Assembly (NCBI GenBank): GCA_964016885.1
Contig: OZ024757.1
Span: 42,098,001 to 42,162,000 of the forward strand
DNA length: 64,000 bases
Direction: 5' to 3'
DNA from: Eledone cirrhosa
Taxonomy: Eukaryota
How positions within the stretch are numbered: the stretch's first letter is position 1; the number at the start of each line of letters is the position of its first letter. The position numbers were made by a program, and so were the translations under genes. This document shows, one piece after another, positions 19,338 to 22,300 of this stretch. A model generated the notes under the pieces. It had not been told where the DNA came from and searched no databases. It saw only the letters and a program-made list of their open reading frames with translations.

Positions 19338-22300
19338 CTACAAAATATAAAAAAAAAGAAAATAAATAATTGTTTCTACTTTAGGCACTCATACTGATGT
19401 TAAGGTATTGTTCTCAAAATAAAATATATCAACATCTCATCTCATAGATTCGATATTATGTAAGATAAAACCTTTACGTGAAAAGATAAAAGATACCCCG
19501 CCTCCAAACTGAATTAAATGAGGTGAAGAAGAAATAAGGATGAAGACATCACCTGATCTACTTTTTACAGATTTCTTCTTTTTCTTCTTCTTAGCCTTCT
19601 TTTTCTTCAACTTCATCTTCATTTTCATCTTCATCTTCATCTTCTTCAACGAGCCATTTTTATGTTTCACTTTCTTCTTTTTTGTTACTTTTTCTTCGTC
19701 AGAGTCATCATCGTCGACATCACCGAGTCTTTCATTGCGCCGTCTCTTCAGAGAAGCCCGTGGAGATACGTGTGTTGAAAGTGGCCGAGAGATCTCATCC
19801 AGGTCACTGTCCTCACTTGATGCTTCAACCAGAGATTTCTTCTTTACAACTCTACCACTAGATGTCACACAGATATCTACAACACAGGTAAACACATTAA
19901 GTTATCTCTACAACACACAGGTGAACACATTAAGTCATCTCTACATCACACAGGTGAACACATTAAGTCATCTCTACAACACACAAGTGAACACATTAAG
20001 TCATCTCTACATCACACAGGTGAACACATTAAGTCATCTCTACATCACACGGGTGAACACATTAAGTCATCTCTACATCACACAGGTGAACACATTAAGT
20101 CATCTCTACAACACACGGGTGAACACATTAAGTCATCTCTACATCACACAGGTGAACACATTAAGTCATCTCTACAACACACAGGTGAACACATTAAGTC
20201 ATCTCTACAACACACAGGTGAACACATTAAGTCATCTCTACATCACACAGGTGAACACATTAAGTCATCTCTACATCACACAGGTGAACACATTAAGTCA
20301 TCTCTACATCACACAGGTGAACACATTAAGTCATCTCTACATCACACAGGTGAACACATTAAGTCATCTCTACATCACACAGGTGAACACATTAAGTCAT
20401 CTCTACAACACACAGGTGAACACATTAAGTCATCTCTACATCACACAGGTGAACACATTAAGTCATCTCTACATCACACAGGTGAACACATTAAGTCATC
20501 TCTACAACACACAAGTGAACACATTAAGTCATCTCTACAACACACAGGTGAACACATTAAGTCATCTCTACATCACACAGGTGAACACATTAAGTCATCT
20601 CTACATCACACAGGTGAACACATTAAGTCATCTCTACATCACACAGGTGAACACATTAAGTCATCTCTACATCACACAGGTGAACACATTAAGTCATCTC
20701 TACATCACACAGGTGAACACATTAAGTCATCTCTACATCACACAGGTGAACACATTAAGTCATCTCTACATCACACAGGTGAACACATTAAGTCATCTCT
20801 ACATCACACAGGTGAACACATTAAGTCATCTCTACATCACACAGGTGAACACATTAAGTCATCTCTACATCACACAGGTGAACACATTAAGTCATCTCTA
20901 CATCACACAGGTGAACACATTAAGTCATCTCTACATCACACAGGTGAACACATTAAGTCATCTCTACATCACACAGGTGAACACATTAAGTCATCTCTAC
21001 ATCACACAGGTGAACACATTAAGTCATCTCTACATCACACAGGTGAACACATTAAGTCATCTCTACATCACACAGGTGAACACATTAAGTCATCTCTACA
21101 TCACACAGGTGAACACATTAAGTCATCTCTACATCACACAGGTGAACACATTAAGTCATCTCTACAACACACAGGTGAACACATTAAGTCATCTCTACAT
21201 CACACAGGTGAACACATTAAGTCATCTCTACATCACACAGGTGAACACATTAAGTCATCTCTACATCACACAGGTGAACACATTAAGTCATCTCTACATC
21301 ACACAGGTGAACACATTAAGTCATCTCTACATCACACAGGTGAACACATTAAGTCATCTCTACATCACACAGGTGAACACATTAAGTCATCTCTACAACA
21401 CACAGGTGAACACATTAAGTCATCTCTACATCACACAGGTGAACACATTAAGTCATCTCTACATCACACAGGTGAACACATTAAGTCATCTCTACATCAC
21501 ACAGGTGAACACATTAAGTCATCTCTACATCACACAGGTGAACACATTAAGTCATCTCTACATCACACAGGTGAACACATTAAGTCATCTCTACATCACA
21601 CAGGTGAACACATTAAGTCATCTCTACATCACACAGGTGAACACATTAAGTCATCTCTACAACACACAGGTGAACACATTAAGTCATCTCTACATCACAC
21701 AGGTGAACACATTAAGTCATCTCTACATCACACAGGTGAACACATTAAGTCATCTCTACATCACACAGGTGAACACATTAAGTCATCTCTACATCACACA
21801 GGTGAACACATTAAGTCATCTCTACATCACACAGGTGAACACATTAAGTCATCTCTACATCACACAGGTGAACACATTAAGTCATCTCTACAACACACAG
21901 GTGAACACATTAAGTCATCTCTACATCACACAGGTGAACACATTAAGTCATCGATTAAATAAAAGCAACACCACATTTAAAAAAATGAATACGTTGACCT
22001 ACAAAATACAATGGCCAAAATGGGGTTCCTCTGTAGGATCTTTGGAGTATTGTTACTGAAGAAGGTGTGTGGTGGGTTGATGACCAGGGAGTAGCTTCTC
22101 TGTATTGAGAGATCACAGCTCAGATACTATGGACAGGAGACGAGAGGTAGGACCACGAGCTAGGTTATATAACATCCATGATCTCAGCTAATCCTTCCTG
22201 GAGAGATCCAGGTGAATCATTGTAAAAGTTGGGTGTTTCTGACCCCGTGGAAGGTGCGCCAGAGGACTCTACCCACCCCGTTATACACTATAGGAATAAC

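What the first reader, a model, noticed from the sequence alone, without database searches (positions are those of the whole stretch)
19877..21952. 3' splice site amplified about 63-fold: an array of decoy or poison acceptors ahead of exon 34
Seen: on the transcribed (minus) strand each 33-nt unit reads gacTTAATgtgttcacctgtgt(ga/gt)tgTAG, a branch-point-like YTRAY about 20 nt before a YAG. The last, slightly diverged unit (aacttaatgtgtttacctgtgttgtag) is the phase-compatible acceptor of exon 34. Splicing exon 33 (phase 1) to any upstream TAG gives E-M/I-T-TAA. That removes the roughly 330-aa tail and places a stop upstream of the last intron, a likely NMD substrate. Inference: either the spliceosome skips about 62 near-identical sites through exon definition, or array length tunes PHIP dose or isoform.
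Basis: partly seen in the sequence, partly recalled or inferred. Interest (0 to 1): 0.72.

Follow-up and report, generated by a model that had tools for sequence, protein, structure and literature searches.

The report
Splice-acceptor minisatellite in octopod PHIP
The last 30 or so bases of one intron of an octopod PHIP gene are repeated 63 times, but the messenger RNA assembled from this species is spliced at the last, original copy, so the other 62 are likely skipped passengers of a repeat type already known from lancelets and humans.

Summary
The array is real: 62 units of 33 nt plus a shorter last unit, each ending in TAG, just before exon 34 of a 35-exon octopod PHIP gene. Word depth in DNA runs fits about 40-60 copies. 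A 5,975-nt RNA contig joins donor 22328 to acceptor 19876, skipping all 62 upstream TAGs, and no decoy-joined contig was laid. A relative's RNA and five Octopus proteins show the same junction. The decoys score 0.8-4.5 bits against 6.2 for the used site. Array sequence is present in RNA at about 4% of mRNA depth per copy. Contigs cannot tell retained intron from rare decoy use, so a small leak is not excluded. It works like amphioxus 'mirages' and the human F7 VNTR. The scan has already noted several such arrays elsewhere in this genome. Verdict: a new, large example of a known kind, likely neutral.

The parts
19878..21952 (-). Intronic minisatellite: 62 x 33 nt plus a 29-nt founder-like end unit when phased from the GAT at 21952; GAT also stands at 19877-19875
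19908..21921 (-). 62 decoy TAG acceptors, one every 33 nt; 50 of the GA type (0.8-1.8 bits) and 12 of the GT type (2.7-4.5 bits)
19877..19907 (-). Last, diverged unit: the used 3' splice site of exon 34 (6.15 bits), with a putative branch motif TTAAT about 21 nt before the junction
   Evidence: branch point inferred from motif only
19553..19876 (-). PHIP coding exon 34 (324 nt)
22328..22827 (-). PHIP coding exon 33 (500 nt, phase-1 donor at 22328)
21953..22327 (-). Non-array 5' part of intron 33, with three ordinary AGs scoring 4.6-7.8 bits that are also skipped
18670..19337 (-). PHIP last coding exon 35
18670..57336 (-). Whole PHIP/BRWD coding span, 35 exons (WD40 repeats and two bromodomains)

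Best explanation
This is an intronic minisatellite, likely grown from a slippage duplication of the exon 34 splice acceptor, and the main PHIP mRNA is spliced at the last copy while the 62 upstream copies are likely skipped passengers. Shown: the array, its position and the splice at 19876. Inferred origin: a 29-nt stretch bounded by GAT on both sides was duplicated. The copy gained two dinucleotides and two substitutions, then was amplified in blocks, while the copy next to the exon kept the original sequence. Inferred choice of site: the last site has the better pyrimidine tract, lies next to purine-rich exon sequence and defines a 324-nt exon with the next donor. A decoy would define a 355-2368-nt exon starting with repeat sequence. 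Rare errors would carry an early stop and likely be degraded.
For: One X24 contig (5975 nt, depth 84.8) covers 19654-19878 at record letters 819-1043 and 22328-22826 at letters 1042-1540, which is the exact 22328-to-19876 joint. Depth arithmetic leaves room for no further X24 contig at 19872-19945, 21888-22008 or 22251-22371. The contig of relative run X19 leaves the stretch at 19878 into exon 33 sequence. Five of five full-length Octopus proteins read [12 protein letters not shown]. Used site 6.15 bits against 1.77 for 49 decoys; 14% of 3070 ordinary intronic AGs of this gene reach 1.77. Purine-rich motifs: 5 in the first 100 nt of exon 34, 0 in 100 nt of array (crude count). Arrays are common here: 30 arrays of 10 or more copies and 6 of 60 or more in 733,641 control bases. 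Published arrays of this kind mostly leave splicing normal (PMC3087553, PMC3902484, PMC1557585).
Against: The unit is present in RNA run X24 at depth 162.6, about 3.3 per copy. Its RNA/DNA depth ratio (0.34) exceeds that of every dispersed-repeat bin compared (0-0.15), so DNA carry-over is unlikely to explain it. It could be 4% retained intron or 4-8% decoy use. Only one RNA run of this species was laid, and only as contigs. The decoys are not implausible sites: 1 of 33 other real acceptors scores below 1.77, 3 below 3.68 and 4 below 4.51. Arrays covering an acceptor are depleted in controls (3 of 163, against 11-18 of 163 at positions shifted into the intron; 0 of 163 for 5 or more copies), which suggests such events are often not harmless. 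In human 6-16 and CBS, two pseudo-sites are used besides the real one (PMC1557585, Introduction).
Confidence: 0.78

Rival explanations
1. A leaky, length-dependent dose control: a share of transcripts uses decoy acceptors, gains a stop three codons in and is degraded, so that longer arrays lower PHIP output.
For: Every decoy product has an early stop at least 344 nt before the last junction. Array sequence in RNA would fit 4% (first decoy) to 8% (spread evenly) of steady-state transcripts. Human PHIP is haploinsufficient (PMC9886139, start of abstract in search listing). Human pseudo-donors are sometimes used (PMC1557585).
Against: No decoy-joined contig was laid and the main contig runs through the junction unbroken. 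The decoys are weaker than the used site. There are no data on length variation. Dose sensitivity and junction-dependent NMD in octopods are untested.
Confidence: 0.1
2. The array slows removal of intron 33 (early spliceosome factors are titrated on the decoys), giving a detained intron or stable lariat without use of the decoys.
For: Array words are in RNA at about 4% of mRNA depth per copy, with an RNA/DNA depth ratio above that of the dispersed repeats nearby.
Against: Summing 49 copies lifts weak signal over the assembler's floor, so ordinary pre-mRNA could give the same picture. The depths are contig means, not levels.
Confidence: 0.1
3. Assembly artefact, or an antisense protein-coding repeat (plus-strand open frames of 845 and 713 aa).
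For: Two plus-strand frames stay open across the array, and Pfam gives hits such as Apolipoprotein and LRR_Zer-1.
Against: DNA word depth matches the assembled copy number. The frames are open only because the 33-nt unit has no stop in them. The 15 unrelated Pfam families on one frame are what an 11-residue period is expected to produce (inference). The 845-aa frame also runs antisense over exon 34.
Confidence: 0.02

Closest known systems
Amphioxus 'mirages' (Adh3, globins BflGb6/BflGb9, troponin C, PGBD5); PMC3087553 and PMC3902484, passages read
   Same: Minisatellite-like tandem copies of an intron-exon boundary. BflGb6 repeats the 3' end of an intron. Copies keep splice signals, mRNA is reported to splice normally, and inner units are homogenised while boundary units diverge.
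   Different: 63 copies here against 3-7 in the globin and PGBD5 cases read. The unit carries at most 1-2 exon bases, whereas BflGb6 carries the 5' part of exon 2. All decoys lead to an immediate stop. The host is a mollusc.
Human splice-site VNTRs: F7 intron 7 (37 bp), CBS intron 13, 6-16 intron 2, lamin B2, PDGF; PMC1557585, abstract and Introduction read
   Same: One end unit spans the exon boundary and the site is reiterated in the intron. The site next to the exon is the main one used.
   Different: Those repeat donors and this repeats an acceptor. F7 has 5-9 copies, the others 10-25. F7 pseudo-sites are identical to the real site, whereas here the used site is the strongest.
Human splicing-associated tandem repeats (PMC10078293, passages read; ABCA7 VNTR PMC5954066, search listing only)
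   Same: Intronic repeats near splice sites whose length can shift splicing; a model for the dose-tuning rival.
   Different: Those have population evidence of a length effect. None exists here.

Membership tests
Mirage (splice-boundary minisatellite) | Head-to-tail minisatellite-like repeat | tested here: met
   62.8 copies of 33 nt, 98% matches
Mirage (splice-boundary minisatellite) | Units keep the splice signal of a real boundary | tested here: met
   All 63 units end in TAG; the last is the acceptor used in RNA
Mirage (splice-boundary minisatellite) | Unit extends across the boundary into exon sequence | tested here: inconclusive
   Only 1-2 exon bases match (the GAT at 19877-19875); Tandem Repeats Finder ends the array at 19882
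Mirage (splice-boundary minisatellite) | Regular splicing is kept | tested here: met
   X24 contig joins 22328 to 19876; rare forms are not visible in contigs
Mirage (splice-boundary minisatellite) | Concerted evolution inside, with the boundary unit excluded | tested here: met
   48 of 63 units are identical; GT variants recur at spacings of 7-8 units; variants cluster near the exon; the last unit is diverged
Mirage (splice-boundary minisatellite) | Length instability between alleles or cells | not testable with these tools
   Only collapsed contigs of one DNA sample were available
Regulated poison splicing (AS-NMD) | The unproductive junction is seen in RNA | tested here: inconclusive
   None laid in X24, but contigs show presence, not absence
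Regulated poison splicing (AS-NMD) | Premature stop well upstream of the last junction | tested here: met
   Stop after 3 codons, at least 344 nt before the exon 34/35 junction, in the simulated products
Regulated poison splicing (AS-NMD) | Isoform rises on NMD inhibition; element conserved across species | not testable with these tools
   No such data; no relative's intron could be fetched
PHIP/BRWD family (host gene) | WD40 repeats plus two bromodomains; orthology to named PHIP proteins | tested here: met
   Pfam WD40 and two Bromodomain exons; 98% identity of the last exon to Octopus vulgaris PHIP-like P0001; collinear exons

The most novel reading that the evidence does not exclude
A variable-length array of poison acceptors acts as a heritable dial on PHIP dose in an octopod: more copies would divert more transcripts into decay, or detain the intron, and the array RNA seen at about 4% of mRNA depth per copy would be the visible remnant.
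Probability: 0.07. Interest if true: 0.65.

Novelty: new member of a known kind. Interest (0 to 1): 0.2.

Why it matters
As it stands it is a tidy natural example that one real acceptor can win against 62 upstream near-copies 33 nt apart, which argues against simple first-come use of an acceptor in a mollusc. It could serve as a ready-made minigene for 3' splice-site choice, as the F7 VNTR did for donors. It would matter much more if copy number changed PHIP output, since human PHIP is dose-sensitive, but nothing here shows that. Two literature searches pairing octopus or cephalopod with minisatellite and intron or splice site listed only papers on chicken and human repeats, so the class may be unreported in cephalopods within that library. 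That point belongs to the set of arrays in this genome, not to this one locus.

Tried and rejected
RNA structure hiding the decoys: three 99-nt folds were no more stable than shuffles (z +1.56, +0.58, +1.04), and local accessibility did not favour the used AG. Rejected. Recursive splicing or micro-exons: no unit has GT right after AG, and none of the five GTs in the unit looks like a donor. Rejected. Antisense protein: see rivals. A dispersed family of this unit: the genome search found only this locus and a 71-72% hit on C3 (that search skips common words). No run was on record as RNA; X24 is taken as RNA because its contig skips five introns within the stretches laid. Unique intron stretches had no X24 cover, but a hole in contigs proves nothing. 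Run X12 held nothing relevant. No relative's intron in metagenome contigs. The original Adh3 mirage paper (PMC117041) is not held, so it is cited only through PMC3087553. Searches for VNTR-made acceptors in UPF3A and for classic duplicated-site experiments returned nothing; exon definition and enhancer-guided choice rest on recalled general knowledge. The automatic gene model mis-set two junctions (15/16 and 18/19). The exon 16 acceptor was corrected, but the exon 18 donor fix failed. Neither affects the exon count or exons 33-35. No supplements were read.

Full report
Observation. Tandem Repeats Finder gives 19882-21952, period 33, 62.8 copies, 98% matches. Cut at each TAG there are 63 units, of which 48 are identical, and the last is 31 nt long. 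A genome search found the unit only at this locus, apart from a 71-72% hit on another contig. In two DNA runs the collapsed unit has 38-60 times the word depth of its flanks, against 49 expected from the assembly, so it is not an assembly artefact. These runs may be the assembly's own sample.

Host gene. The last exon is 98% identical to Octopus vulgaris PHIP-like protein P0001, Pfam finds WD40 and two bromodomain exons, and the O. sinensis protein P0003 aligns exon by exon. The spliced model has 35 coding exons; exon 33 ends at 22328 in phase 1, exon 34 starts at 19876, and about 330 codons follow. Two other junctions of that automatic model were mis-set and only one was corrected; this does not touch exons 33-35. 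The species is an octopod; I did not try to name it.

Which site is used. Run X24 shares its organism code with the DNA holders, and its contig skips introns, so it is taken as RNA. One contig of 5975 nt and depth 84.8 covers 19654-19878 at letters 819-1043 and 22328-22826 at letters 1042-1540. The two-letter overlap is the AG shared by the exon 33 end and the acceptor, so the joint is exactly 22328 to 19876. The binned depths at both ends of the array are reproduced to one decimal by this contig and one collapsed repeat contig, so no decoy-joined contig was laid there. A relative's run (X19) and 5 of 5 full-length Octopus proteins show the same junction. The limits are one RNA run of this species, contigs only, and only about two units at each end of the array laid.

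The loose end. The collapsed unit has depth 162.6 in X24, about 3.3 per copy or 4% of the mRNA depth. Its RNA/DNA ratio of 0.34 is above the 0-0.15 of nine dispersed-repeat bins, so DNA carry-over is an unlikely source (contig depths are rough). The signal would be explained by 3.8% retained intron, 3.8% use of the first decoy, or 8% use spread evenly. Use of the two decoys nearest the exon would add nothing to this signal. Contigs cannot separate these cases, and decay would hide part of any leak.

Why the last site likely wins (inferred). A weight matrix from the gene's 33 other acceptors gives 6.15 bits for the used site, 1.77 for 49 decoys, 3.68 for 9, 4.51 for 2, and 2.67 and 0.76 for one each. 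Of 3070 ordinary intronic AGs in this gene, 14% reach 1.77 and 3% reach 6.15. Three non-array AGs in the same intron score 4.6-7.8 and are skipped too. Against this, four real acceptors score 0.1-3.8, within or below the decoy range. The used site is followed by purine-rich exon sequence and defines a 324-nt exon, against 355-2368 nt for a decoy. That exon context guides the choice is recalled general knowledge; my search for the classic papers returned none. The decoys also carry a longer UG run before the AG, and a (TG)n repeat at the CFTR exon 9 acceptor is a silencer (PMC10078293, passage); any such effect here is untested. Folding gives no special structure.

Origin (inferred). Phased from the GAT at 21952, the array is 62 x 33 nt plus 29 nt, followed by GAT at 19877-19875, which is the last intron base and the first two exon bases. 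Slippage between these two GATs would copy the acceptor. The amplified unit differs from the end unit by two substitutions and two added dinucleotides. Variant units recur every 7-8 units in the upstream part and crowd near the exon, as expected from block-wise expansion away from a fixed founder.

Is it more than chance? In 733,641 control bases around myosin, kinesin and DEAD-box exons there are 244 arrays of two or more copies, 30 of ten or more and 6 of sixty or more. Of 191 profile hits, 28 were dropped (10 long, 16 with a best AG under 3 bits, 2 without an AG). Among the 163 acceptors called, 3 are covered by an array, all copies of one kinesin gene, and none by five or more copies; positions 100-300 nt upstream are covered in 11-18 of 163. 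A check on all 181 short hits without acceptor calling listed arrays ending near 9 exon starts; apart from the three kinesin copies these seem to stop short of the AG. So a large acceptor array is uncommon (under about 2% of acceptors), and arrays are depleted at acceptors. With an assumed 200,000 acceptors, array density alone would still give tens of cases of this size in the genome (rough). PHIP itself has a second case: the exon 30 acceptor lies in a 33-nt x 2.2 duplication and X24 splices at 24874. Earlier scan notes list several more acceptor arrays in this genome (unchecked leads). I confirmed in part a 31-nt array running up to a RUVBL acceptor, and did not find the fasciclin array near 11 hits.

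Comparison with what is known. The name and paper leads came from the earlier notes, and I read the passages myself. [quoted passage not shown] Human F7, lamin B2 and PDGF arrays repeat a donor and use only the real site, while 6-16 and CBS also use two pseudo-sites (PMC1557585, abstract and Introduction). This array works like those. It meets four mirage features tested, is inconclusive on carrying exon sequence (1-2 bases), and its length instability could not be tested. It is not shown to be regulated poison splicing.

Verdict. Real, correctly described, and most likely a tolerated passenger (0.78). A small decoy leak or a detained intron remains open (about 0.2 together), and a functional length-dependent dial on PHIP dose is unlikely (0.07). 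New member of a known kind; interest 0.2.

Noticed in passing
window 24868-24937: A 33-nt x 2.2 duplication covers the exon 30 acceptor (24874), the weakest acceptor of the gene by weight matrix (0.11 bits). X24 splices at 24874. It looks like an unexpanded version of the same event.
   Followed up: partly
window 48557-49940: A 32-nt x 43 minisatellite starts 33 nt after the exon 6 donor; it does not include the donor.
   Followed up: partly
window 28570-28714 and 29895-30042: Short arrays ending 31 and 26 nt before the exon 26 and exon 24 acceptors.
   Followed up: partly
window 27268: The exon 27 acceptor region encodes VSHSTG, present in P0003 and absent from P0001; likely a real alternative acceptor in PHIP.
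   Followed up: no
window 11572-14035, + strand: Broken reading frames that look by eye like the endonuclease and reverse transcriptase of a LINE element (label recalled, no profile search run).
   Followed up: no
window 43311-43853, + strand: A 180-aa frame in intron 8 that looks by eye like a DDE transposase fragment; no Pfam hit at 1e-3.
   Followed up: partly
window 17302-18007, 2052-3250, 5740-7964: A 706-nt TA-type tract about 660 nt past the PHIP stop, and two more large minisatellites (23 nt x 52, 43 nt x 51).
   Followed up: no
window 19573-19653: The Lys/Met run in exon 34 is longer than in O. vulgaris P0001, a coding repeat expansion.
   Followed up: no
L017 4575-4766: A 64-nt x 3 repeat in a myosin gene spans an exon end and its donor: a donor-side mirage.
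   Followed up: partly
L048, L051, L052 (kinesin copies on C1636 and C18): A 120-nt repeat spans a predicted acceptor plus 16 exon bases, with 4.3, 4.3 and 2.3 units in three gene copies.
   Followed up: partly
   Followed up: partly
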